Positions 1,490-50,463 of a stretch of 64,000 nucleotides of DNA are shown in pieces. The notes under the pieces are model-generated. The model worked only from the letters and a program-made list of their open reading frames with translations, searched no databases and had not been told where the DNA came from. Origin of the DNA: an uncultured Gammaproteobacteria bacterium (GTDB lineage Bacteria; Patescibacteriota; Patescibacteriia; Magasanikbacterales; GWA2-37-8); assembly GCA_964641245.1 (NCBI GenBank), contig CAZXML010000001.1:229460-293459 (forward strand). Reading direction: 5' to 3'. The translations under genes and the position numbers were made by a program. Within the stretch, counting starts at the first letter, position 1. Each line of letters starts with the position of its first letter.

Positions 1490-3580
<2,091 letters not shown>

Positions 3581-3589
3581 TTATTCTGG

Positions 3590-3751
3590 TTTGTCATTGC
3601 GACCCGTCAAGCGGGGAAGCAATCCTATCCACAGCTCACTCACTCTCTCCCCTACAAGGGGAGAGATAAAGAGAGGGGTTTATCGTTAAAATGTTAGCTT
3701 AACAACAACCAAAACCCCCTCTACTGTTCTCCCCCTTATAGGGGGAGAAAC
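3590..3751. repeat. Composite of repeat-element fragments (family B end, GC-hairpin fragment, two family C GGGGAGAG hairpins).
   Basis: The region contains tgtcattgcgac...gcaatcc and caagcggggaa. It also contains ctctctcccctacaaggggagag...gaggggtttatcg and cccctctactgttctcccccttatagggggagaaacc, which match pieces found at 36272, 32251 and 47041. Confidence 0.6.
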
Positions 3752-5715: not shown

Positions 5716-6867
5716 TTAAACAATATTCCGTAACGCCAAACCAATGGCCACGGACATGCGCGGCCCTATTTGGCGCAAAATCGGTTTCAACCCCTCCTGA
5801 TATACGACTCTGGCCCAAGAATCTCCTACATATGTTTTAATTTTAAATTTTTCTTGAATATACTTTGCCAGAAACGGCATCAAGGCCATTCCGCCGGTTA
5901 AAATAATTTTTTCGGGGCGCTTGCCTTCATTGCCGGTTTGACGCAAATATAATTCCAAACTGACTTCTACCTCCTTCATTATAGGATCTACCACCGGCAT
6001 TAAAATGTCCAGCCATTTTTGTTCGGTTAATATATTATTACTGGTCGCGGCCAGATAGTCAAATAAATCATGCTTAGCCTGCTCAACTAGATCGCGTTCA
6101 ACCCCTAAAATATTTTGTAAAACCTTGTCTATTTTATCGCCACCCGATTCTATGCTTTGATGAGTAATTGGCATGCCCTGGTCTATTATAAAAAAGTTTG
6201 TGCGTTCGGAACCGATGTCTATTATCATAGATAACGCCTGATCCCTGCCAACCAAACATCGAGACAAGGCCGTTGATTCGGGTTCCAACGCCTCTAAAGA
6301 CAATCCGGCGCGCTGGAAAATTTTGGAATAAAATTCTATGAGTTTATGCGGTACGGCATTTACCAAAACCCGCTGTGATTTATCTTCGGGCAAACCTTTT
6401 AACACCTGATAATCCAAGGCCATTTCTTCTAAAGGCATGGGCAATAATTTTTTTACTTCCGCTTTAACAATATGATCTAGTTCTTCTTTCTTTAATATAG
6501 GAAGCGTAACCACCGCGTGAAAAACAGATGAAACCGGCAGGCTGACAACCGCAGTTTTGGATATTATTCGAGACGATTTGCAAATCGCCTTAAGAGTGTT
6601 CGCGTATTTTTCTATTTGCGCCTCGTTGTCACCCTCCCCTTTTAGGGGAGGGACAGAGGGTGGGGTATTCGCGGAGTTTTGTTTCTCTAAAAGACCGGCG
6701 ATATTTTTTTCTTCATTGGCCGCAAGTTTATGGATATCCTGTTTGCCGGATGTTAAACCGTACGAAAACAAAACCGGCCTGTTTTTTTCCAGGCGTAATT
6801 CTACTAATTTTATTCCCCCGGACCCGATGTCTACTCCGAGAAAGGATTTTGGTTTATTCCAAAACAT
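5716..6867 (-). CDS. pilM: Type IV pilus assembly ATPase-fold protein PilM.
   Basis: N-terminus FLGVDIGSGGIKLVELR has an actin-like/PilM fold with acetate-kinase-like phosphate loops. It contains an in-frame ~45 nt repeat-derived insertion (NTPPSVPPLKGEGD). Confidence 0.75.
   Translation of the reverse strand: MFWNKPKSFLGVDIGSGGIKLVELRLEKNRPVLFSYGLTSGKQDIHKLAANEEKNIAGLLEKQNSANTPPSVPPLKGEGDNEAQIEKYANTLKAICKSSRIISKTAVVSLPVSSVFHAVVTLPILKKEELDHIVKAEVKKLLPMPLEEMALDYQVLKGLPEDKSQRVLVNAVPHKLIEFYSKIFQRAGLSLEALEPESTALSRCLVGRDQALSMIIDIGSERTNFFIIDQGMPITHQSIESGGDKIDKVLQNILGVERDLVEQAKHDLFDYLAATSNNILTEQKWLDILMPVVDPIMKEVEVSLELYLRQTGNEGKRPEKIILTGGMALMPFLAKYIQEKFKIKTYVGDSWARVVYQEGLKPILRQIGPRMSVAIGLALRNIV
6628..6675. 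repeat. Family C (GGGGAGRG hairpin) element copy lying in-frame inside pilM.
   Basis: ccctccccttttaggggagggacagagggtggggtattcgcgg aligns with 47050 (ctctccccttttaggggagagacagagagaggggtatcgcgg). Confidence 0.65.
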
Positions 6868-17212: not shown

Positions 17213-17283
17213 TCCGAGGTGGTCTAATGGTAGGACAGCAGACTCTGAATCTGCTTATCTTGGTTCGAATCCAAGCCTCGGAA
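17213..17283 (+). tRNA. tRNA-Gln (anticodon CTG).
   Basis: Cloverleaf with acceptor tccgagg/cctcgga, anticodon stem gcaga/tctgc, loop ctCTGaa and T-arm cttgg-ttcgaat-ccaag. No CCA is encoded. Confidence 0.85.
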
Positions 17284-21272: not shown

Positions 21273-23033
21273 TTATTTAGTAACTGTTAATTCTTCTTTT
21301 TTTCTGTGTCCCAAAAACAATATATTCCCCCGTTCGTTCATCCACGGCAAAACAAGTCTCATAATTGTTCTTGTTAAAATGATGGCGGAAAACATACTTA
21401 CCAGCACGCCGATTGCCAGCGTGACGGCAAAGCCCTGTACAAATCCTGTTCCCATCCAGACCATAAAGAAACAACTAATAAGCGTGGTGATGTTGCTGTC
21501 TCTGATGGACGGCCAGGCCCGAACAAACGCCTCTTCAGCGGCAGATTTAAGACTTCGTCCTTCTCTTAGTTCTTCTTTAAGCCGCTCAAATATAAGCACG
21601 TTGGCATCTACGGCCATACCTATAGATAAGATGAAGCCGGCCATACCGGACAATGTAAGGGTTACGCCGATTAATTTGAATAAAGCAAGAGTTAATAAAG
21701 TGTAAATACATAAAGCAATAGAAGCCAGGAATCCAGGCAATCTATAATACAATATCATATATATAAGTACGGCAATTAAACCATAAATACCGGCCAAGAG
21801 GCTTTTTTGCATGGATTCGGCTCCTAATGTAGCGCCTACTTTTTGCTGGCTGATTAAATCCACCGGGACCGGCAAGGCGCCGGAGTTTAAACGCTGGGCC
21901 AAAAGTTTGGCTTCTTGGATAGAAAAACTGCCGGAAATTACGGCGCTACCGTTTAAAATCGGCTCATTAACTCGCGGGATGCTAACCGGGGTTCCGTCCA
22001 AAAATATGGCAACCAACTTGCCGGTACTGCGCTTGGTGATATCGGCAAATAATTGTGTGCCTTCGTCATTGAATTGCAAAGCCACTTGAACCTGACCGGT
22101 GCGGGAATCCTGACTTACTTCAGTTCTTTTTAATTGTTTGCCGGATAAACCGGTTTCCTTCCATTGTTCGGATGGCGGTACGATATCTATCGGTTGTTTT
22201 GTTTGTACAAAAATTCTGGCAATAGTATAAAGAGTCGTGCTGGCGGATACTGACCCGCCGTCTCCTTGTTGTGAAGAAATTCTTTGTACTATATTCAAAC
22301 CGTCAAAACTTTTTACCAGTTCTGTGCTGACATCGCCGTCTTTGTGAAGACCTGCCCATTTATAAATATCCGGGAAAACCGAATTGTCTATTAAACCAAC
22401 CACTCCGGCTTCGGCTTTAGATTTTTCGTCTTCGGAATATTGTGTTACCGCATCGGCAAAACTCATACCGCCTTTTATAGCGACAAGCGCTTCATTGGCT
22501 TTCTTTTGCGCCGCGGCGTTATAATCGTTCATTTCTTTTGTCTCTGCGGCTGTAAGCGGTCTTAAAGGTTCGTTATTTTCTTCTTTAAATTCTAAAATAG
22601 GAGTTTCACCAATCATTTTTATGGCCTGATTAACGTCGGTAATGCCCGGCAATTCTACAATTACCCGATAATCATTGCCGACTTTGGTTGTTTGCACCAA
22701 CGGCTCGGACACGCCCAAACCACCGCGCACCCGGCGTTCAATTACATCGCGCACGCCTTCTACGGCGCTGGCTCTGTCCGCGTCCGGAATCAATGCGGTA
22801 TCAGCCTGATATATAAGATGGGCGCCACCTTGTAAATCCAGCCCCAAATTAAACCCGGCTGACGGAAAATTAGGAATGCCTAAGTTCGCTTTTTTATTAA
22901 CCCAATCTATGCCTCGGTTAGCGTAAACCGGAAATACTATTAGCAGACAAAAGACAGTTAAAACAAAAATAGCAAAAACACGCCATTTCAGGTTTTCTCT
23001 GGACAAAGGTTTTGGTTGGTTTCTTACGGCCAT
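21273..23033 (-). CDS. secD: Protein-export membrane protein SecD.
   Basis: 586 aa with a large periplasmic domain and a C-terminal 6-TM RND-like domain. Confidence 0.9.
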   Translation of the reverse strand: MAVRNQPKPLSRENLKWRVFAIFVLTVFCLLIVFPVYANRGIDWVNKKANLGIPNFPSAGFNLGLDLQGGAHLIYQADTALIPDADRASAVEGVRDVIERRVRGGLGVSEPLVQTTKVGNDYRVIVELPGITDVNQAIKMIGETPILEFKEENNEPLRPLTAAETKEMNDYNAAAQKKANEALVAIKGGMSFADAVTQYSEDEKSKAEAGVVGLIDNSVFPDIYKWAGLHKDGDVSTELVKSFDGLNIVQRISSQQGDGGSVSASTTLYTIARIFVQTKQPIDIVPPSEQWKETGLSGKQLKRTEVSQDSRTGQVQVALQFNDEGTQLFADITKRSTGKLVAIFLDGTPVSIPRVNEPILNGSAVISGSFSIQEAKLLAQRLNSGALPVPVDLISQQKVGATLGAESMQKSLLAGIYGLIAVLIYMILYYRLPGFLASIALCIYTLLTLALFKLIGVTLTLSGMAGFILSIGMAVDANVLIFERLKEELREGRSLKSAAEEAFVRAWPSIRDSNITTLISCFFMVWMGTGFVQGFAVTLAIGVLVSMFSAIILTRTIMRLVLPWMNERGNILFLGHRKKEELTVTK

Positions 23034-23395: not shown

Positions 23396-23518
23396 ATTAA
23401 GCTTTCTTTCTGCCTCCTCTATATCTTTGGCAATGGTCGCGCCGGTTTCTACCCGCTTTATCGCCTTTAAGTGTTCCTTTATTTTATCCTCTTCAGTACT
23501 GTTTGGAGAAATTTGTTA

Positions 23519-23624
23519 GGAACAGCCACTTAAGCGAGTTGGGATGTGTCATATGCCGGTACTTTACCCTGCTTCAGGAGCTTTACCGAGAAGCGCGGGG
23601 TGTTACCGATGTATCTCATCTTCT
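23519..23624. mobile_element. Solo left-end remnant (~106 bp) of the IS481-family element, inverted relative to the full copy at 36961.
   Basis: Its reverse complement matches 36961-37070 at ~93% identity, including the first 12 codons of the transposase (MTHPNSLKWLFL). No transposase body follows. Confidence 0.75.
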
Positions 23625-23631
23625 GCATTAT

Positions 23632-23690
23632 CCACAACTAAAACCTCCCCGGTTAAATCAGGGAGGTTTTAGTTGTGGCTCTATTTTTTA
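23632..23690 (+). terminator. Perfect 18-bp-stem hairpin followed by a T-run.
   Basis: ccacaactaaaacctccc cggttaaatca gggaggttttagttgtgg ctctatttttta. It abuts the IS-end remnant and the GGDEF gene stop. Confidence 0.55.
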
Positions 23691-27328: not shown

Positions 27329-27399
27329 TTCCGAGGCTTGGAATCGAACCAAGATAAACAGCTTCAAAGGCTGCTGTCCTACCTTTAGACGACCTCGGA
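27329..27399 (-). tRNA. tRNA-Gln (anticodon TTG).
   Basis: The reverse complement tccgaggtcgtctaaaggtaggacagcagccttTTGaagctg...ttggttcgattccaagcctcggaa is nearly identical to the CTG isoacceptor at 17213. Confidence 0.85.
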
Positions 27400-31232: not shown

Positions 31233-32198
31233 TTATACGTCCCACTTAAAACCATTGCCGTAGCTACCCCACTCGGCGGTTTTTTCGAATTGGGGTTGGC
31301 GGAGTTCCAGGAAATCTATTATTCCCTGCGGGGATAAATCATAACCGGATATGGAAAAATCTACAGCTTCGTTGGTGGTTGGGCGGGTGACGGAAACCAT
31401 AACCGGTTGTTTTTTGCCGATGGCGTAAGCCAGCTTAACCATCACTTCTCCGCCAACTTTTTTCACCGCGTCTACCGCTATTTTGCGCGCCATATAGGCG
31501 CCACTGCGGTCTACTTTGGTGCCGTCTTTGCCGGAATAGGCGCCACCGCCAACCGGAACTTGCGGGCCATAAGCGTCACAAATAATTTTTCGGCCGGTGA
31601 CGCCGGTGTCCGCGTCAAATCCGCCGATGTCCCAATCGCCGGCCGGGTTGGCGTAGATGGATAATTCGGAATCCACTTCTTTGCCTTTAAACCATTCAAA
31701 AATTATATCGCGCAGTTCGGAAGATTTTGCTTTGTGAAAACTGGCCACCACGCTGCAGATTTTTCCGTCGCGCAATGTGATTTGAGTTTTTCCATCATTG
31801 GGGAATTTGGCATAGATTAATTTGTTTAAATTCCGCGCCAAATATAATTCTTGTGGAACGAATTCTTCGTTTGCGTCGCAGGCATAGCCAACCATTATTC
31901 CCTGATCGCCCGCCCCGCCTACATCCACTCCTTGGGCAATCTCTGAACTCTGTTGAACAATATTTGTATTCACCTGATATTGTTCGCCGGCCACGCGCTT
32001 GGCAATTTGCGCGGCGTCGATTTTTGCGTTAGTGGTAAGTTCGCCGGTAAGAGTGATAAGTCCGTGACCGCCCATGCTTTCCATAGCCACCCGGCTATGC
32101 GGATCCTGTTCTAAACAAGCGTCTAAAATAGCGTCCGATATTCTGTCGCAAATTTTATCCGGGTGACGCGGCGAAACCGATTCGGCTGTGATGAGCAT
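31233..32198 (-). CDS. metK: S-adenosylmethionine synthetase (compact, 321 aa).
   Basis: ESVSPRHPDKICDRISDAILDA, GAGDQGIMVGYA, TGRKIICDAYG and GGGAYSGKDGTKVDRSGAYMAR are present. Confidence 0.9.
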   Translation of the reverse strand: MLITAESVSPRHPDKICDRISDAILDACLEQDPHSRVAMESMGGHGLITLTGELTTNAKIDAAQIAKRVAGEQYQVNTNIVQQSSEIAQGVDVGGAGDQGIMVGYACDANEEFVPQELYLARNLNKLIYAKFPNDGKTQITLRDGKICSVVASFHKAKSSELRDIIFEWFKGKEVDSELSIYANPAGDWDIGGFDADTGVTGRKIICDAYGPQVPVGGGAYSGKDGTKVDRSGAYMARKIAVDAVKKVGGEVMVKLAYAIGKKQPVMVSVTRPTTNEAVDFSISGYDLSPQGIIDFLELRQPQFEKTAEWGSYGNGFKWDV

Positions 32199-32351: not shown

Positions 32352-32569
32352 ATTGACCTCGACCGAACAAATAAATTAAACAAAAAAACTTTCCTTGGCA
32401 GGAAAGAAAGTCGACCTTTATCTTTCCCCGTTGGGGCTAGATTTGGCACCTTATCCCGACTAAGTCGGGACAGGTTGTCGGCAGGTCTTAGGGCTAGTTC
32501 CCTCGCTGCACTCTTGATAACTATATCGTACCAGGTATTTCTTAATTATCAAAAAATACCTGGGGATAA

Positions 32570-36896: not shown

Positions 36897-36960
36897 AAAA
36901 TTTATGGCTGATACCTAAAAATTATACCAAAAAAATGGCAAAATGACAAGCTGCATTATG

Positions 36961-38130
36961 TAGAAGATGAGATACATCGGTAACACTCCACGCTTCTCGG
37001 CAAAGCTCCTGAAGCAGGGTAAAGTACCGACATATGACACATCCCAACTCTCTTAAATGGCTGTTCCTGACCAAGGAAAAGCTACCACAGGTTTTTTTCA
37101 GAGACAACCAAAAGAAATTGCTTGCCCATCATGATCGTTGGCGGCGAACCGCAGGCCTCCTTAAATTATCCAAGGGCGCGAAGAGCCGCCTCGAGTGGAT
37201 GATATTTTATGAAACGAAAGGTGAGCGGAATGCTCGTTTAACTGCCAGGCATTTCGGCATCGTTCCCAAGACTTTTTATCAATGGCATAATCGCTTTGAT
37301 GAAGGCGACCTTAAAACGCTCGAAGAGCGTTCACGCGCGCCCGTTAGCAAACGGGTGCGGGAGTACACACCCCTCCAGTATGTCCGGGTAATTAAACTTC
37401 GCAAGGAACATATCCGGTGGGGCAAGATGAAGCTTTTAAAACTGTATCAAGATGACTTTCCAAAAGATGCAACAATTACCAGTTGGAAGGTTCAATGTAT
37501 TATTGAAGTATCCGGCATCTACTACCACCCTCAAAAACAAGCTAGAATCAACCGCAAACGCATATTGTCGGTGAAGCGGAAGAAGATTACTGACCTCGCC
37601 AAAAAACCACGGCAGGGTTTTTTGGTATGTCTCGACACAATCGTGCGTTATGTTGCCGGACAGAAGCGCTACATTTTGACGGCGATTGACCAATACTCAA
37701 AAATTACCTTTGGCCGAATGTACACGACACATAGCTCGGCAAACGCGAGGGACTTTCTTCACCGCCTCCACTATCTGCTTGACGGAAAGATTGAAAACAT
37801 TCAAACTGACAACGGCAGTGAATTCAAATTGCATTTTGATACGGCCTTAACGAAGTTGAATATTCCACACTACCATTCTCGGGTAAGGACACCAAAAGAT
37901 AACGCGGTGAACGAACGGTTCAATCGTACCCTAGATGAAGAATTCCTGGCTATGGGCAATCTGATGGCAGATACCGTTCTTTTTAACCAACGTCTGACTG
38001 AGTGGCTGGTAGAATACAACTTCAAACGTCCGCATCAATCTCTGGGGTATCTACCACCAATTAACTTTCATTTTAAATATCATAAAGTGTTACCGATGTA
38101 CCCGTCTAGTACAACTGATTGACACATCGC
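36961..38130 (+). mobile_element. IS481-family insertion sequence (single transposase ORF).
   Basis: Transposase 37034-38122 (362 aa) has an N-terminal HTH and an rve/DDE core (DNGSEF...RPHQSLGY). An imperfect terminal repeat core TACATCGGTAACACT lies at both ends. The left end is defined by comparison with the remnant at 23519-23624. The right boundary is approximate. Confidence 0.8.
37034..38122 (+). CDS. IS481-family DDE transposase.
   Basis: HTH, integrase core D...D...E region, DNGSEFK and KRPHQSLGYLPP are present. Confidence 0.85.
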   Translation: MTHPNSLKWLFLTKEKLPQVFFRDNQKKLLAHHDRWRRTAGLLKLSKGAKSRLEWMIFYETKGERNARLTARHFGIVPKTFYQWHNRFDEGDLKTLEERSRAPVSKRVREYTPLQYVRVIKLRKEHIRWGKMKLLKLYQDDFPKDATITSWKVQCIIEVSGIYYHPQKQARINRKRILSVKRKKITDLAKKPRQGFLVCLDTIVRYVAGQKRYILTAIDQYSKITFGRMYTTHSSANARDFLHRLHYLLDGKIENIQTDNGSEFKLHFDTALTKLNIPHYHSRVRTPKDNAVNERFNRTLDEEFLAMGNLMADTVLFNQRLTEWLVEYNFKRPHQSLGYLPPINFHFKYHKVLPMYPSSTTD

Positions 38131-38938: not shown

Positions 38939-39511
38939 TTACTGTCTAATACTTACTTCGTAAAGAATCTGCTCCAACTTATGCAAAGCCTGTTTGGCCT
39001 GATCAAACTTCTGGCGATTATAGCCGGTCAAATTCATATCTACCAATTCGGTAATAATTTCATCGGCAACTTTACTGCATCTTTTTACTTCTTCGTATTT
39101 TTTTTCGGTGGCGGATTTTATGGCGTAACGCAAAAGTTCTCCGGGCACATCGCATAAACCGCTGATAAAAATATCCGAATCAACCTTGATTTTTGCTATC
39201 TTGCCGATAGTTTTCTTGTGCAGATACTGATTAAAAATAGAAGCCTCCACAAATTCTTCCAACGCCGCTTTATATGAACCCTCTTCAAAAATTCCCGGGT
39301 CTTTCTTATTTTTTAAATTTAAGTCCAGCAGTATTTTTTCCGCCTGACCCAAATAATTTTGCCCTTCGCTTGCATCGTCTCTTTGCATGGCAAATATCGC
39401 CTTCTTCGCCAGAAATTGCGCATCACCCGCTGATTTTATAATCCCCCGCCGTTTGGCGGAATAATCCAATAATTCCTGGCGTACCTGGTTGAAATATTTT
39501 TTGTCCAACAT
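38939..39511 (-). CDS. Translin-family protein (bacterial homologue).
   Basis: 190-aa all-helical protein. The C-terminus KLEQILYEVSIRQ matches translin KVEEVVYDLSIRG, with further alignable helices (LLRYAIKSA..., NLTGYNRQKFDQ). Confidence 0.5.
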   Translation of the reverse strand: MLDKKYFNQVRQELLDYSAKRRGIIKSAGDAQFLAKKAIFAMQRDDASEGQNYLGQAEKILLDLNLKNKKDPGIFEEGSYKAALEEFVEASIFNQYLHKKTIGKIAKIKVDSDIFISGLCDVPGELLRYAIKSATEKKYEEVKRCSKVADEIITELVDMNLTGYNRQKFDQAKQALHKLEQILYEVSIRQ

Positions 39512-44148: not shown

Positions 44149-44859
44149 TTATTTAACGGCTATGGCGATAAGATTCCGTCCGCCTTTTTTATCTGTCCAG
44201 TTTGTTCTCTCGCTGTAGTCAATTTTTTTTATTTTGAATCCGGCTTCTGTTAATAACCCGCTTAATTCTTCTTTGGGAAAATGATGATAATATCTTTCGG
44301 CTAATTGCTCGCCTTCAGGAGTTTTCCAGGGAACCAGAAAATCATTTTCTCCGATTTGCTTCCAACTTTTGTCTATTTTACTTTTTGCCCAATCGCTTTC
44401 CAGATTCCAAACCGTAATAATTAATTTTCCGGACGGTTTTAATTGTTTATAAACATCTTTTAATAATTCCAAACGGCTTTGTTTGTCCGGCAAATGATGA
44501 AACGAAGCAATCATGAAAACCAGATCAAAAAAATCTTTTGAGAAGCTCTTTTTTTTCTTGGCGGTGGAAAAAAATTTTATCCAACCTTCTTTTATTTCTT
44601 TTTGGTAATTTTTTTTCGCGATTTTTAATAATTCATCGCTTTGGTCCGTGCCAATATAATTCACCCGCTTCTCTTTTAACAATAAAACCAACCGGCCGTT
44701 TCCACAGCCCCAATCCAAAATATTCTGCCCGTTTTTTATAAACGGTTTAAACATTTCCAGCTCGCCGGCGTTATTTCTGGTGCTGTCAAAATACCTGGCT
44801 ATACGGTTGTAATCTTCGCGGGTTTTGTGTATAATCTTAGTTGTATCTTTTCTTAACAT
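44149..44859 (-). CDS. Class I SAM-dependent methyltransferase.
   Basis: Motif I ILDWGCGNGRLV in a Rossmann layout. Confidence 0.7.
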   Translation of the reverse strand: MLRKDTTKIIHKTREDYNRIARYFDSTRNNAGELEMFKPFIKNGQNILDWGCGNGRLVLLLKEKRVNYIGTDQSDELLKIAKKNYQKEIKEGWIKFFSTAKKKKSFSKDFFDLVFMIASFHHLPDKQSRLELLKDVYKQLKPSGKLIITVWNLESDWAKSKIDKSWKQIGENDFLVPWKTPEGEQLAERYYHHFPKEELSGLLTEAGFKIKKIDYSERTNWTDKKGGRNLIAIAVK

Positions 44860-46628
44860 GTATGTCTGTTACAGAGGAAATGATTAAATATCTGCTGGCC
44901 AATCCCCCCAAAACGGAGGATGCTTTTGGCGTGGTTTTAAGAAAAATTTTGCGTCAGACCAAAAACGCGCAGGCCAACATTCCCACCAAATCGTCGCTGA
45001 TTAAATCATATCATAAATTGTTAAAACAGCACAAGATTAAAAAGAGTCCGGCGCTGGAAAAAACCTTAATGAAGCGGGCGGTGCGCACTTTGTCCGGCGT
45101 CAGCATTATTACCGTGCTCACCAAACCATTCCCCTGTCCCGGAAAGTGCATTTATTGCCCCACCGAAGCGCGCATGCCTAAAAGTTACATTTCCGATGAA
45201 CCGGCCGCGGCGCGCGCCTTAAGTTTGGCGTTTGATCCTTACCAACAGGTTGTTCAACGCTTTAAGGCTTTAGAAAATAACGGCCACCCCACCGATAAAG
45301 TGGAGTTGATTATTAAGGGTGGAACATGGAATTCGTATCCGATTAAATACCAATACTGGTTTGTTGCCAGATGTTTTGAAGCGTGCAATAATGTAAAATT
45401 TAATGCAGCCAAGCCAAGGGGCGCGCGTTCGGCAGTAGACGAGAAATTTTCTTTGGATAAATTGCGCCAATTGAGTTTCAAAATTCAAAAAGCAAATGAA
45501 AACGGCAAACACCGCCTGATTGGTTTAACCATAGAAACCCGCCCCGATTTTATAAACGCCGGCACTATCGCGGCTATGCGGGAAATGGGTACCACCAGAA
45601 TAGAACTAGGCGTACAAAATACCAATGAAAAAATATTAAAATTAACAAAACGCGGCCATGGCACGGCCGAAGTAAAACGCGCCACCAAAATGCTAAAAGA
45701 TTACGGTTTTAAAGTTGACTACCATTTAATGCCCCAATTGCCCGGAGCGACTCCGGCGACGGATTTAAAAATGATGTTAAAAGTTTTTGACGACCCGGAT
45801 TACCGTCCGGATATGATTAAGGTGTATCCGTGCACGGTGGTGAAAACTTCCGAACTTTACGACTGGCTAAAACGGGGTGAATACAAAACGTATTCAGACC
45901 GCCATTTGATAAACATGCTGAAAAAATTTAAAGTAAAAGTTCCGCGCTACGTGCGCATTTCCCGGTTAATCCGCGATATTCCCGGTCATCATATTCAAGC
46001 CGGAAATAAAATGACAAACTTGCGCCAGGTAATCCAGGAGGAGTTAAAAAAAGAAGGATTAAAATGCAGTTGTCTGCGCTGTCGCGAGGTCGGACATCAA
46101 CACATCGAGTCAAATGTCAAAAGTCAAAAGTCAAAAGTCAAAATGTTTGTAGACAAATACGAAGCCAACGGCGGGACGGAATATTTCTTAAGTTTCGAAG
46201 ATACCAAACGCGACGTTGTTTACGCGTTTTGCCGATTGCGTGTTCTCAAGCCTGTCATCCTGAGCAAAGCGAAGGATCTCTCTCTTTCAAACAAAAGGGA
46301 TTCTTCGGTCACTTCACTCCCTCAGAATGACAACCACAACCTCCCCAACGAAGGAATTAGCGCGGCCGAATTAGTCAAAATGGGCTACCCCGCTTTTATC
46401 CGCGAACTCCATACTTACGGCCAACTTATAAACATTGGGAAAAAAGCCAAAGGGGCTAGCCAGCATATTGGCATGGGCACAAAATTAATTGTTGAAGCGG
46501 AAAAAATCTGTAGAAAAAACAAGGCCTACAAATTAGCCGTAATTTCCGGAGTGGGTGTACGCGAATATTACAAAAAATTTGGCTACAAACTGGAAAACAC
46601 CTATATGGTAAAGACTTTGAAAAAGTAG
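44841..46628 (+). CDS. elp3: Elp3-family radical-SAM/GNAT protein (tRNA uridine-34 modification homologue).
   Basis: CPGKCIYCP radical-SAM cluster motif, LIGLTIETRPDF, and a C-terminal GNAT region (HIGMGTKLIVEAEKIC). A start at 44862 (MSVTEEM) is also possible. It carries two in-frame repeat insertions. Confidence 0.8.
   Translation: MYLFLTCMSVTEEMIKYLLANPPKTEDAFGVVLRKILRQTKNAQANIPTKSSLIKSYHKLLKQHKIKKSPALEKTLMKRAVRTLSGVSIITVLTKPFPCPGKCIYCPTEARMPKSYISDEPAAARALSLAFDPYQQVVQRFKALENNGHPTDKVELIIKGGTWNSYPIKYQYWFVARCFEACNNVKFNAAKPRGARSAVDEKFSLDKLRQLSFKIQKANENGKHRLIGLTIETRPDFINAGTIAAMREMGTTRIELGVQNTNEKILKLTKRGHGTAEVKRATKMLKDYGFKVDYHLMPQLPGATPATDLKMMLKVFDDPDYRPDMIKVYPCTVVKTSELYDWLKRGEYKTYSDRHLINMLKKFKVKVPRYVRISRLIRDIPGHHIQAGNKMTNLRQVIQEELKKEGLKCSCLRCREVGHQHIESNVKSQKSKVKMFVDKYEANGGTEYFLSFEDTKRDVVYAFCRLRVLKPVILSKAKDLSLSNKRDSSVTSLPQNDNHNLPNEGISAAELVKMGYPAFIRELHTYGQLINIGKKAKGASQHIGMGTKLIVEAEKICRKNKAYKLAVISGVGVREYYKKFGYKLENTYMVKTLKK
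46109..46143 (+). repeat. Tandem heptanucleotide repeat (GTCAAAT then GTCAAAA x4) inside the elp3 coding sequence.
   Basis: gtcaaat gtcaaaa gtcaaaa gtcaaaa gtcaaaa, encoding SNVKSQKSKVK. Confidence 0.85.
46264..46332. repeat. Family A TGTCAT-type element inserted in-frame in elp3.
   Basis: tgtcatcctgagcaaagcgaaggatctctctc...ccctcagaatgacaa, encoding VILSKAKDLSLSNKRDSSVTSLPQND. Confidence 0.8.
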
Positions 46629-47030: not shown

Positions 47031-47040
47031 TTTGAATCTC

Positions 47041-47150
47041 TACCCAATCGCTCTCTCCCCTTTTAGGGGAGAGACAGAGAGAGGGGTATCGCGGATGTCG
47101 AATTACAAATACCCCCACCCTGCCCTCCCCCTAAATGGGGGAGGAACGAT
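47041..47150. repeat. Family C element (two GGGGAG hairpins).
   Basis: ctctctccccttttaggggagagacagagagaggggtatcgcg...ccctccccctaaatgggggagg. Confidence 0.7.
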
Positions 47151-47199
47151 ACAAAACGACATGAATTGAATTATTTTATTCAAACTTATTATATTTTTT

Positions 47200-49968: not shown

Positions 49969-50463
49969 CTACTTTAATAATGCTTTTAACTGTTCCTCTT
50001 TGGCGGGATCTAAATTAAACATCTTTAATAAACTATCCATGGATACGGGTTTGGAGTCGCTTTGCTGCTCCATGCCCAGCAAACTGCCGTATTGTTTAAG
50101 AACTCCGCTTATCATAGGCTGTAAATAAATGTAGGCCAAAATAAGCGGCACGACAATTAAAATAAGTTTTATCCAACTAAAAATAGCCGCCCACAAAAGT
50201 TTGTTATTTATTTTCCGGTTTTGTTCATAAATAATTTGGGACCATTTTAGATTTTTTTCCATAAGTTCTTTTAGGCTTGGGTCGACCTTAGGAACCTCTG
50301 GTGCAGAGGGCTTTTTTGGAACAACTCCGGCAATCTCGGCAACTCCTCCTACCTCCTCTTGGGAAGAGGAGGATTTGACCGTGTCGCTGGCTGTGGTTTC
50401 TTTGTGTCTAAACATATTATTATGGTTATTGGTGAAATTGATGAAAATGGTCAAGTTGATCAA
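49969..50463 (-). CDS. Hypothetical membrane protein.
   Basis: 164 aa with two central TM helices. No recognisable domain. Confidence 0.45.
   Translation of the reverse strand: MINLTIFINFTNNHNNMFRHKETTASDTVKSSSSQEEVGGVAEIAGVVPKKPSAPEVPKVDPSLKELMEKNLKWSQIIYEQNRKINNKLLWAAIFSWIKLILIVVPLILAYIYLQPMISGVLKQYGSLLGMEQQSDSKPVSMDSLLKMFNLDPAKEEQLKALLK

What the first reader, a model, noticed from the sequence alone, without database searches (positions are those of the whole stretch)
6628..6675. Family C (GGGGAG hairpin) repeat fragment translated inside pilM
ccctccccttttaggggagggacagagggtggggtattcgcgg matches the intergenic element at 47050 at about 40 of 45 nt. It is read in-frame on the minus strand as ANTPPSVPPLKGEGD inside PilM. 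This is a third repeat family found within a coding sequence.
Basis: seen in the sequence. Interest (0 to 1): 0.65.

Follow-up and report, generated by a model that had tools for sequence, protein, structure and literature searches.

The report
Triplex-type mini-repeat translated inside pilM
A 35-50 base copy of a short dispersed DNA repeat of the known "intrastrand triplex motif" type sits in frame inside the pilus gene pilM of a Candidatus Magasanikbacteria genome, where it encodes part of a floppy linker; it looks like a tolerated passenger, as with the repeats translated inside Rickettsia genes.

Summary
Window 6628-6675 matches the intergenic element at 47045-47093 in 40 of 48 aligned columns, far above chance and above what the encoded peptide alone would give. 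It is read in frame as A66-N81 (ANTPPSVPPLKGEGDN) of a bona fide PilM. The segment is one complete repeat unit: pyrimidine arm CCCTCCCC, purine arm GGGGAGGG, and a mirror-image third segment GGGTGGGG. This is the class II intrastrand triplex architecture described for E. coli BoxC/PIT/TMECO repeats (Holder 2015), but a different sequence family. The four intergenic units in the window form two inverted pairs. The pilM unit lies in a hypervariable linker that AlphaFold leaves disordered and that P. aeruginosa PilM lacks. Relatives at 81-90% identity share it, while the closest one (P0009) does not. Its hairpin decays without compensation in several lineages, and other repeat families occupy the same linker elsewhere. 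Best reading: a tolerated in-frame passenger at an indel-prone spot, analogous to Rickettsia palindromic elements. The same hairpin core also sits in frame in UvrB, UvrC, LeuRS, GlyS, RlmN, QueA, TatD and RsmB of other phyla. It is a new member of known kinds, and interest is moderate.

The parts
5716..6867 (-). pilM coding sequence (383 aa)
   Evidence: ORF. Pfam PilM_2 E=5.1e-37. Homologues are named PilM in Candidatus Magasanikbacteria / Patescibacteria. AlphaFold pTM 0.83.
6637..6726 (-). Codons for residues 48-77, the hypervariable and disordered PilM linker
   Evidence: pLDDT is below 50 for residues 48-75. Length and sequence vary in all homologues. Query residues 4-34 and 72-381 align to residues 10-40 and 47-355 of P. 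aeruginosa PilM 5eox, so about 30 aa are lineage-specific.
6625..6672 (-). Repeat-derived codons A66-N81 (ANTPPSVPPLKGEGDN)
   Evidence: Translation. The same peptide with variants occurs in P0001, P0002, P0005, P0011, P0013 and P0019.
6632..6639 (+). Y arm CCCTCCCC (pyrimidine stem)
   Evidence: Class II scan. It pairs with 6645-6652 in the DNA and RNA folds.
6640..6644 (+). Loop 1, TTTTA
6645..6652 (+). R arm GGGGAGGG (purine stem, Watson-Crick partner of the Y arm)
6653..6657 (+). Loop 2, ACAGA
6658..6665 (+). R' segment GGGTGGGG, the mirror image of the R arm (G.G and T.A triads, 8 of 8 compatible)
   Evidence: The mirror relation holds in the units listed when read by eye, and is statistically supported in 116 copies from other genomes.
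6666..6675 (+). Conserved tail TATTCGCGGA, shared with the intergenic units
   Evidence: Alignment and local alignment. The same tail follows units in metagenome copies.
47051..47087 (+). Intergenic unit, left half of an inverted pair between the NUDIX gene and the next gene downstream
   Evidence: The pair folds at -26 kcal/mol, z=-5.1.
47111..47146 (-). Intergenic unit, right half of that inverted pair
3643..3679 (+). Intergenic unit, half of an inverted pair between ligA and the A24 prepilin peptidase gene
   Evidence: The whole spacer of about 175 nt is absent in the relatives L001 and L002.
3714..3750 (-). Intergenic unit, the other half of that pair

Best explanation
Window 6628-6675 is one complete unit of a short dispersed repeat of the G/C-rich 'intrastrand triplex motif' kind. 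The unit consists of a pyrimidine arm, a purine arm and a mirror-image purine segment. Elsewhere in this genome such units sit between genes as inverted pairs. In an ancestor of a sub-clade of Candidatus Magasanikbacteria, one unit became part of pilM at the C-terminal end of a long, disordered, lineage-specific linker, replacing about as much linker as it added. It survived for two reasons. First, in this orientation two of the three frames through the unit are open (read directly from the sequence). Second, the frame in use gives a Pro/Gly-rich peptide (TPPSVPPLKGEG) that suits a flexible linker. Since then it has been inherited as ordinary coding sequence: synonymous and conservative changes accumulate and the hairpin decays in some lineages. 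I infer no role for it in PilM. It is a tolerated passenger that marks an indel- and recombination-prone spot. Shown here: family membership, the in-frame reading, the location in a disordered linker, sharing by relatives, and decay. Inferred: that it arrived by insertion with deletion or by recombination, that it is neutral, and that the repeat's unusual DNA structure contributes to the local instability.
For: The similarity is far above chance and above the peptide-constrained null. The unit meets the class II triplex criteria with 8 of 8 triads, and the window holds 6 such G-rich motifs against 0.00 in 40 shuffles. The linker is disordered in the AlphaFold model and absent from P. aeruginosa PilM. 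Its length and sequence vary in all homologues. The same unit, at the same place and in the same frame, occurs in P0001, P0002, P0005, P0011, P0013 and P0019, which are 81-91% identical to the window protein, and in the metagenome PilM on L139; a rearranged version occurs in P0008. The hairpin carries uncompensated mismatches in L007, L008 and L010 (for example GGG to GTG). A GTCCCGC-type repeat occupies the same linker in L005 and L010, and another palindrome is nested inside the unit's loop in L005. No terminator-like site lies at the unit. The same hairpin core lies in frame inside GlyS, UvrC, LeuRS, UvrB, RlmN, QueA, TatD, RsmB and an FtsJ-type methyltransferase of unrelated bacteria, and all four open frames are used. 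In UvrB it is a clean 24-aa insertion relative to solved structures. Literature: TM-type repeats are associated with rearranged flanks in E. coli (PMC4666352), and in-frame repeat insertions are well known in Rickettsia (PMC10969869).
Against: The unit is at least as well conserved at the nucleotide level as the flanking codons: 51-53 of 60 identical in the block containing it for L001, L007 and L009, against 45-57 elsewhere. The window, L001 and L009 keep a perfect hairpin. Selection on the nucleic-acid structure therefore cannot be excluded from about 14 codons. The distribution is patchy: the window's nearest PilM (P0009) lacks the unit, while more distant relatives have it. This needs repeated loss or recombination, which I did not demonstrate. 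No target-site duplication is visible and no mobilising enzyme was found, so how the unit got there is unknown. Triplex formation was not tested and, for the E. coli family, has not been seen in vivo (PMC4666352).
Confidence: 0.75

Rival explanations
1. The unit is kept in pilM because its nucleic-acid structure does something. Possibilities are a stable mRNA hairpin that pauses ribosomes after the N-terminal beta-sheet, or a DNA hairpin, triplex or G-quadruplex on the template strand that modulates transcription or generates useful linker variation.
For: The RNA fold of the region is -26.2 kcal/mol, z=-3.35, and the DNA fold is -13.2 kcal/mol, z=-2.97. The triads are a perfect 8 of 8. GGGGAGGGACAGAGGGTGGGG also fits the G3+N1-7 quadruplex pattern. 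Nucleotide conservation of the unit is not lower than that of the flanks. The linker is unusually variable among close relatives.
Against: The hairpin is broken without compensation in L007, L008 and L010, and it is split by a nested insertion in L005. The closest relative manages without the unit. There is no terminator-like tail. The quadruplex pattern is absent from the sister units at 3643 and 47051 (GGGGAGAGA...GAGAGGGG), so it is not a family feature. PIT/TMECO elements showed no promoter or terminator activity and no effect on polymerases in vivo (PMC4666352).
Confidence: 0.12
2. The encoded peptide itself is adaptive. The PPSVPP stretch would serve as a proline-rich spacer or interaction motif that tunes the PilM linker, so the repeat was exapted as protein sequence.
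For: The peptide core PPS[VIL]PPLK is retained across relatives that are 81-91% identical to the window protein overall, while many of the differences within the unit are synonymous third-position changes (CCA/CCT/CCG).
Against: The residues lie in a region without a confident structure. Close relatives carry unrelated linkers of similar length. The same DNA core yields four different peptides in other proteins (PLKGE, SPKRG, SPFRG, PLLGE), depending only on orientation and frame. That pattern points to DNA-level origin followed by tolerance, not to selection for a motif.
Confidence: 0.1
3. The similarity is a coincidence of Pro/Gly-rich low-complexity coding sequence.
For: The segment is rich in C and G runs, and its peptide is rich in Pro and Gly.
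Against: The score of 31 compares with a maximum of 17 in shuffles and a maximum of 29 in 20,000 synonymous recodings. Other P/G-rich coding windows score 9 or less. The match extends into the non-P/G tail TATTCGCGGA.
Confidence: 0.01

Closest known systems
E. coli BoxC / PIT / TMECO intrastrand triplex motifs (Hoyne and Maher 2000, as cited in Holder et al. 2015, PMC4666352)
   Same: The order of parts is the same: a 5' pyrimidine stem, a purine stem, then a 3' mirror purine stem with G.G, A.A and T.A triads. Stems are 8-9 nt, loops are short, and the units are G/C-rich. There are many dispersed copies, some arranged as inverted ('palindromic') pairs. No associated mobility genes are known, and the flanks are variable between relatives.
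   Different: The sequence differs: CCCTCCCC/GGGGAGGG/GGGTGGGG here, against CCCTCNCCC N3-6 GGGNGAGGG N3 GGGNGAGGG. Loop 2 is 5 nt rather than 3. The host is a Patescibacterium rather than a proteobacterium. TMECO is reported as always intergenic in E. coli K-12, whereas this copy is translated.
Rickettsia palindromic elements (RPEs) and other MITE-like repeats that insert in frame (review PMC10969869)
   Same: A dispersed palindromic repeat is found both between genes and in frame inside unrelated genes. It adds a peptide at a structurally permissive place without destroying the protein.
   Different: RPEs are about 150 bp per the review and encode a conserved peptide. This unit is 35-50 nt, has a three-segment architecture, is read in four different frames in different genes, and shows no sequence relation to RPEs.
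REP / REPIN doublets mobilised by RAYT transposases (PMC3337134, PMC3116915, PMC3733652)
   Same: The intergenic copies are two hairpin units in inverted orientation separated by a short spacer, like REPINs.
   Different: The 64-kb window encodes no Y1/RAYT transposase; its only transposase is an rve-type one. I saw no GTAG or CGTC tag at the unit ends on reading. REPs have no mirror third segment.
Rfam Whalefall-1 RNA motif (RF01762)
   Same: The model consensus is a CUCUCC/GGAGAG hairpin followed, after a second stem-loop, by a conserved purine tail AGgGuGAGG that mirrors the 3' arm. Many cross-phylum copies found here have the same layout, with a hairpin nested in loop 2.
   Different: The window units score only 16.4 and 13.6 bits against a gathering score of 37, and they lack the second stem-loop. 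None of the 16 cross-phylum loci tested reached any relevant Rfam threshold. This is a resemblance, not membership.

Membership tests
Class II intrastrand triplex motif (ITxF definition, Holder et al. 2015) | Order of parts: 5' pyrimidine stem, then purine stem, then 3' reverse-Hoogsteen stem | tested here: met
   CCCTCCCC / GGGGAGGG / GGGTGGGG at 6632-6665 on the + strand. The definition is quoted.
Class II intrastrand triplex motif (ITxF definition, Holder et al. 2015) | Stems of 6-15 nt (8 or more for confident calls), at most one mismatched triad, triads C-G.G, T-A.A or T-A.T | tested here: met
   8-nt stems and 8 of 8 compatible triads in my re-implementation of the rule (rule text).
Class II intrastrand triplex motif (ITxF definition, Holder et al. 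2015) | Loops of 1-6 nt | tested here: met
   The loops are TTTTA (5 nt) and ACAGA (5 nt).
Class II intrastrand triplex motif (ITxF definition, Holder et al. 2015) | Excess over shuffled sequence | tested here: met
   6 G-rich motifs in the window against a mean of 0.00 in 40 dinucleotide shuffles.
Class II intrastrand triplex motif (ITxF definition, Holder et al. 2015) | The strand actually folds into a triplex (CD, NMR, footprinting) | not testable with these tools
   ViennaRNA models only the hairpin. For TMECO the triplex was shown in vitro but not in vivo.
TMECO / PIT / BoxC sequence family of Proteobacteria | Match to CCCTCNCCC N3-6 GGGNGAGGG N3 GGGNGAGGG | tested here: not met
   The stems are CCCTCCCC / GGGGAGGG / GGGTGGGG and loop 2 is 5 nt (pattern quoted). 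The class is the same but the family is different.
TMECO / PIT / BoxC sequence family of Proteobacteria | Intergenic location | tested here: not met
   This copy is inside pilM. Four other window units are intergenic.
RPE-like in-frame repeat insertion | Member of a dispersed repeat family that also has intergenic copies | tested here: met
RPE-like in-frame repeat insertion | The reading frame is kept, the host protein is otherwise intact, and close homologues lack the segment | tested here: met
   The PilM_2 match and the fold are intact. P0009, P0004, P0027 and others lack the segment.
RPE-like in-frame repeat insertion | Lies at a structurally permissive (surface or loop) site | tested here: met
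   The pLDDT<50 segment spans residues 48-75, and the linker is absent from 5eox.
RPE-like in-frame repeat insertion | Size (about 150 bp per PMC10969869) and sequence of the Rickettsia RPE families | tested here: not met
   The unit is 35-50 nt. It is an analogy only.
REP / REPIN | Two hairpin units in inverted orientation with a spacer | tested here: met
   3643-3750 and 47051-47146. The pilM copy is a singleton.
REP / REPIN | A RAYT (Y1 transposase) gene in the genome | tested here: inconclusive
   None among the 48 distinct window ORFs scanned against Pfam; there is one rve-type transposase at 37034-38122. Only 64 kb of the genome is available.
REP / REPIN | A GTAG or CGTC tetranucleotide tag at one end of the unit | tested here: not met
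   Neither tetranucleotide is present at the unit ends in the sequences, read directly.
MITE | Terminal inverted repeats with a target-site duplication | tested here: inconclusive
   No direct repeat flanks the pilM unit. Because the event replaced linker sequence, a duplication could have been lost.
Rfam Whalefall-1 (RF01762) | Score at or above the gathering threshold (37 bits) | tested here: not met
   16.4 and 13.6 bits for the intergenic units, and nothing for the pilM unit.

The most novel reading that the evidence does not exclude
Three-segment (pyrimidine arm, purine arm, mirror purine arm) mini-repeats may form one pan-bacterial class of elements that spread by a structure-dependent route and not through a recognisable transposase. 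On this reading they routinely become in-frame, translated insertions in essential genes across phyla (UvrB, UvrC, LeuRS, GlyS, RlmN, QueA, TatD, RsmB, PilM, a reverse transcriptase). That would make them a 35-50 nt counterpart of Rickettsia RPEs and an unrecognised general source of linker and loop variation in proteins. The evidence does not exclude this. In 116 copies from many phyla anchored only on the hairpin, the mirror third segment lies downstream in 51 and upstream in 4, and it covaries with the purine arm. Most of the copies with a third segment (37 of 50) have no inverted partner. About 8% of copies lie inside recognised protein domain families.
Probability: 0.3. Interest if true: 0.6.

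Novelty: new member of a known kind. Interest (0 to 1): 0.4.

Why it matters
For annotation, Pro/Gly-rich oddities such as ...PPLKGEG..., ...SPKRGG..., ...SPFRGE... and ...PLLGEG... inside otherwise conserved proteins can be repeat units rather than sequencing errors or real motifs. For Patescibacteria, it shows that even very small genomes carry several hairpin repeat families and tolerate them inside genes, and that the PilM linker is a recurrent landing and rearrangement site. For the intrastrand triplex literature, TMECO is described as always intergenic in E. coli K-12; translated copies, and copies in phyla far from Proteobacteria, extend that picture. They also offer natural experiments on whether the third segment is maintained by selection, because coding copies let DNA-level and peptide-level constraint be separated.

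Tried and rejected
Chance or low-complexity similarity is rejected by the shuffle test and by the synonymous-recoding null.

An intrinsic terminator or promoter at the unit was not found.

No known RNA family matches. Nothing reached the gathering score in the window or in 16 cross-phylum loci. The sub-threshold hits are miRNA-like palindrome noise plus a weak Whalefall-1 resemblance.

The G-quadruplex as the family's common feature is rejected, because only the G-richer units (6632 and 47111) fit the pattern and 3643 and 47051 do not.

I asked whether the third segment exists only to pair with the partner unit of an inverted pair. This is rejected: 37 of 50 cross-phylum copies that have a third segment have no partner within 200 nt, and the two halves at 47051 and 47111 pair poorly with each other in that segment.

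A simple insertion with clean boundaries is not supported. The unit-free relative L004 has a linker only 6 nt shorter, with unrelated sequence.

A single gain with strictly vertical inheritance is not supported by the neighbour-joining tree of the C-terminal 315 columns. The tree is shallow and I did not test recombination formally.

The search for a mobilising enzyme in the window found only an rve-type transposase unrelated in position to the units.

Literature searches for such repeats in the Candidate Phyla Radiation found nothing specific.
Full report
**1. Observation**

Window 6628-6675 reads gtcaccctccccttttaggggagggacagagggtggggtattcgcgg. The intergenic stretch 47045-47093 reads cgctctctccccttttaggggagagacagagagaggggtatcgcgg. 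Aligned, they share 40 of 48 columns with one 1-nt gap. The best local alignment has 36 of 40 identities, score 31.

- With the known units masked, nothing else in the window scores above 15. Thirty dinucleotide shuffles of the whole window reach at most 17.
I tested it directly. None of 20,000 synonymous recodings of the same 20-aa peptide, drawn with the window's codon usage, reaches 31 (mean 14.8, max 29). The other Pro/Gly-rich coding windows score 9 or less.
- The 17-mer core occurs at three loci against 0.13 matches expected, and the repeat finder groups them as one family.
- The minus-strand ORF 5716-6867 reads the segment as ...NSANTPPSVPPLKGEGDNE.... It is a genuine PilM: Pfam PilM_2 E=5e-37, and more than 1900 homologues, the named ones from Candidatus Magasanikbacteria and Patescibacteria.

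**2. Anatomy of the unit**

All five units in the window, written in the G-rich orientation, have three segments.

| Unit | Strand | Y arm | R arm | R' segment |
|---|---|---|---|---|
| 3643-3679 | + | CTCTCCCC | GGGGAGAG | GAGAGGGG |
| 3714-3750 | - | TCTCCCCC | GGGGGAGA | AGAGGGGG |
| 6632-6666 (pilM) | + | CCCTCCCC | GGGGAGGG | GGGTGGGG |
| 47051-47087 | + | CTCTCCCC | GGGGAGAG | mirror of R when read with a 5-nt loop (GAGAGGGG); the scan reported GAGAGAGG with a 3-nt loop |
| 47111-47146 | - | pyrimidine arm, register ambiguous | G-rich arm | GGTGGGGG when read with a short loop |

- The R arm is the Watson-Crick complement of the Y arm.
- The R' segment is the mirror image, not the complement, of the R arm, with A opposite A or T.
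- Read by eye, the three segments change together between units. For example GAGAGGGG mirrors GGGGAGAG, and GGGTGGGG mirrors GGGGAGGG.
- The four intergenic units form two inverted pairs with spacers of 23-35 nt. The 47040-47155 pair folds at -26 kcal/mol, z=-5.1.
- The pilM copy is a single complete unit plus the shared tail TATTCGCGGA. It is half of a pair, not a broken piece.

**3. What kind of repeat this is**

The layout is exactly the 'class II intrastrand triplex motif' of Holder et al. 2015 (PMC4666352). That motif is a 5' pyrimidine stem, a purine stem, and a 3' reverse-Hoogsteen stem with C-G.G, T-A.A or T-A.T triads. Stems are 6-15 nt and loops 1-6 nt. The paper characterises the E. 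coli family formerly called BoxC or PIT, now TMECO:

- Its pattern is CCCTCNCCC N3-6 GGGNGAGGG N3 GGGNGAGGG.
- It occurs 23 times in E. coli K-12 and is always intergenic there.
- Some copies are inverted pairs.
- It forms a triplex in vitro but none was detected in vivo.
- It has no promoter or terminator activity and no associated mobility genes.
- Its flanks are unusually rearranged between strains.

I re-implemented the rule with stem 8, at most one bad triad and loops of 1-6 nt.

- The window holds six G-rich motifs against 0.00 in 40 shuffles.
- The pilM unit is perfect, with 8 of 8 triads.
- It does not match the TMECO consensus, so it belongs to the same class but a different family.

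**4. Is the third segment real?**

The loci came from Oscillospiraceae, Chitinophagaceae, Nostoc, Desulfobacteraceae, Planctomycetia, Chloroflexota, Paceibacteria and others. In the 116 copies with enough flank:

- The mirror hexamer G[AT]GGGG lies within 30 nt downstream in 51 copies and upstream in 4. Its complement lies downstream in 1.
- It is followed by T in 46 of 56 cases.
- The first position outside the anchored core is triplex-compatible in 45 of 55 copies, against 25.4 expected (max 36 in 2000 shuffles).

Many copies carry an extra hairpin nested in loop 2. Of 50 copies with a third segment, 37 have no inverted partner nearby, so pairing with a partner does not explain the segment. 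Copies within one genome are related, so these counts are not independent events. They do agree with the literature that the three-segment design is a feature of the repeats. Whether a triplex forms in cells is untested.

**5. Where the unit sits in PilM**

- AlphaFold (45-sequence alignment, pTM 0.83) gives a confident actin-like fold except residues 1-3 and 48-75, where pLDDT is below 50. A helix starts at residue 78.
- The repeat-derived residues are A66-N81, so they form the C-terminal part of the disordered linker and the cap of that helix.
- Against P. aeruginosa PilM (5eox), query residues 4-34 and 72-381 align to chain residues 10-40 and 47-355. About 30 residues of linker are therefore specific to this lineage.
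- Across 120 homologues the linker varies freely in length and sequence.

**6. History**

- The same unit, at the same place and in the same frame, is present in P0001, P0002, P0005, P0011, P0013 and P0019, which are 81-91% identical to the window protein. It is also in a metagenome PilM on L139, and in rearranged form in P0008.
- It is absent from P0009, P0004, P0027 and others in the same clade.
- In a neighbour-joining tree of the region after the linker, the bearers are interspersed with non-bearers, and the window's sister (P0009) lacks the unit.
- The unit-free linker of L004 is only 6 nt shorter and is unrelated in sequence. The event was therefore a replacement (insertion with deletion, or allelic exchange), not a clean insertion.
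- In L007, L008 and L010 the hairpin has uncompensated mismatches. In L005 a different palindrome (CCACCGCC...GGCGGTGG) is nested in its loop. A third family (GTCCCGC...GCGGGAT...GCGGGAC, peptide LSRNSGI...AGQ) occupies the same linker in L005 and L010, and by peptide in P0003, P0006 and P0018.
- Nucleotide identity of the unit block between genomes (51-53 of 60 for L001, L007 and L009) is not lower than elsewhere in the gene. About 14 codons cannot exclude some constraint.
- The intergenic pair at 3643-3750 lies in a spacer of about 175 nt that is missing in L001 and L002, where the prepilin peptidase gene and ligA abut. Units are therefore gained or lost on the timescale separating these genomes.

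**7. Generality**

Of the roughly 125 cross-phylum copies, 19 lie in stop-free spans of at least 600 nt.

- Nine of the spans were scanned against Pfam, and all nine matched recognised protein families: GlyS, UvrC, LeuRS, UvrB, RlmN, QueA, TatD, RsmB and an FtsJ-type methyltransferase.
- In UvrB the segment VTSPGLRPPSPKRGGNTAMSSSTL is a clean 24-aa insertion between residues that are adjacent in solved UvrB.
- All four open frames of the core are used: PLKGE, SPKRG, SPFRG and PLLGE.
- A metagenome scan for the Magasanikbacteria subfamily found 23 contigs, mostly from Hainich groundwater. Most were intergenic pairs. Coding copies lay in PilM, in a probable reverse transcriptase (judged only from the RYADD motif next to the unit; I ran no family scan on it), and as a whole pair inside an unidentified ORF with a hydrophobic N-terminal stretch.

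**8. Mechanism and rivals**

The best-supported reading is a tolerated passenger. A dispersed structured repeat was captured in a disordered linker. It was kept because the frame is open and the peptide is innocuous. It now evolves as coding sequence at a spot prone to indels and exchange.

- Rival A, selection on the mRNA or DNA structure. The stable folds support it. The decay in relatives and the absence from the sister lineage count against it.
- Rival B, an adaptive proline-rich peptide. The frame-dependent variety of peptides that the same core yields elsewhere counts against it.
- Rival C, chance. It is excluded.

No terminator lies at the unit. No Rfam family matches. No Y1/RAYT transposase is encoded in the window; its only transposase is an rve-type one at 37034-38122. 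How units move remains unknown, as it does for TMECO.

**9. Comparison and novelty**

- It works like an RPE-type in-frame repeat (PMC10969869).
- It is built like a TM/PIT element (PMC4666352).
- Its intergenic form looks like a REPIN doublet (PMC3337134).
- It is not a member of the TMECO, RPE or Whalefall-1 sequence families. REPIN membership cannot be decided without the whole genome.
- I found no paper describing such repeats in Patescibacteria or translated TM-type units, but the library is incomplete. From memory, and not checked here, small dispersed repeats with nested insertions were described in Nostoc by Elhai and colleagues in 2008. This is a lead, not a test.

The cross-phylum coding captures are the part most worth following up.

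Noticed in passing
window 2228-2323 (- strand, inside ligA 1490-3577): LigA carries extra residues (about 14 aligned gap columns; ...[24 protein letters not shown]...) relative to L001 and L002, which read ...SPFGRGRGG.... The DNA is a hairpin repeat (GTCCCGATTCTCAAGAATCGAGGATCCTCGACCGCGGTCGGGA) nested inside a CCCCG...CGGGG...TAGGGGTGGG element. This is a second repeat-in-gene case with nesting.
   Followed up: partly
window 46252-46295 (+), inside the ELP3-like radical SAM gene 44841-46628: A copy of the most abundant repeat family in the window (TGTCATCCTGA...GAAGGATCTC, 9 copies) lies in frame and is read as ...VILSKAKDLSLS....
   Followed up: no
L005 6167-7390, L010 961-2091; proteins P0003, P0006, P0018: The same PilM linker hosts other repeat families in relatives. 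One is a GTCCCGC/GCGGGAT/GCGGGAC element (peptide LSRNSGI..AGQ). In L005 a CCACCGCC...GGCGGTGG palindrome is nested in the loop of the family C unit. The linker is a recurrent landing site.
   Followed up: partly
window 3578-3751; L001 8204-8207; L008 8188-8598; L010 4154-4429: The junction between the prepilin peptidase gene and ligA is variable. The window has 175 nt of stacked repeats, L001 and L002 have nothing, L008 has a DUF559 endonuclease-like gene, and L010 has a GIY-YIG gene.
   Followed up: partly
window 50342-50372 (- strand), inside ORF 49969-50463: A sixth class II triplex-type motif of different sequence (CCTCCTCT tccca AGAGGAGG ta GGAGGAGT) lies in the N-terminal part of a 164-aa ORF that has no Pfam match. 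It could be another coding copy or chance.
   Followed up: no
L147 672-699; L141 and L149: In groundwater metagenome contigs, a family C unit lies in frame immediately before an RYADD motif in what looks like a reverse transcriptase (not confirmed by a family scan). A whole inverted pair lies inside an unidentified ORF with a hydrophobic N-terminal stretch.
   Followed up: no
window 47051-47086 (+) and 47111-47147 (-): Both intergenic units give weak sub-threshold hits to Rfam Whalefall-1 (16.4 and 13.6 bits, gathering score 37). The model consensus is itself a CUCUCC/GGAGAG hairpin, then a second stem-loop, then a mirror purine tail AGgGuGAGG. That Rfam 'sRNA' may therefore be a triplex-type repeat with a hairpin nested in loop 2.
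   Followed up: partly
window 37034-38122 (+); 23512-23634 and 36952-37074: An rve-type (DDE) transposase gene. Its upstream region overlaps one arm of a 123-nt, 91% complementary inverted repeat whose other arm lies 13 kb away.
   Followed up: no
window 32415-32523 (-) and 31233-32198 (-): A SAM riboswitch (55.8 bits) lies upstream of the S-adenosylmethionine synthetase gene.
   Followed up: no
window 21273-23033 (-): The SecD homologue carries a PPIC-type rotamase domain (residues 166-251) between its N-terminal P1 segment and its P1 head, which is an unusual fusion.
   Followed up: no
window 38939-39511 (-): A 190-aa protein matches the Translin family (E=3.6e-17), which is mostly known from eukaryotes and archaea.
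   Followed up: no
window 17213-17283 (+) and 27329-27399 (-): Two tRNA genes are 91% complementary copies of each other, 10 kb apart and on opposite strands.
   Followed up: no
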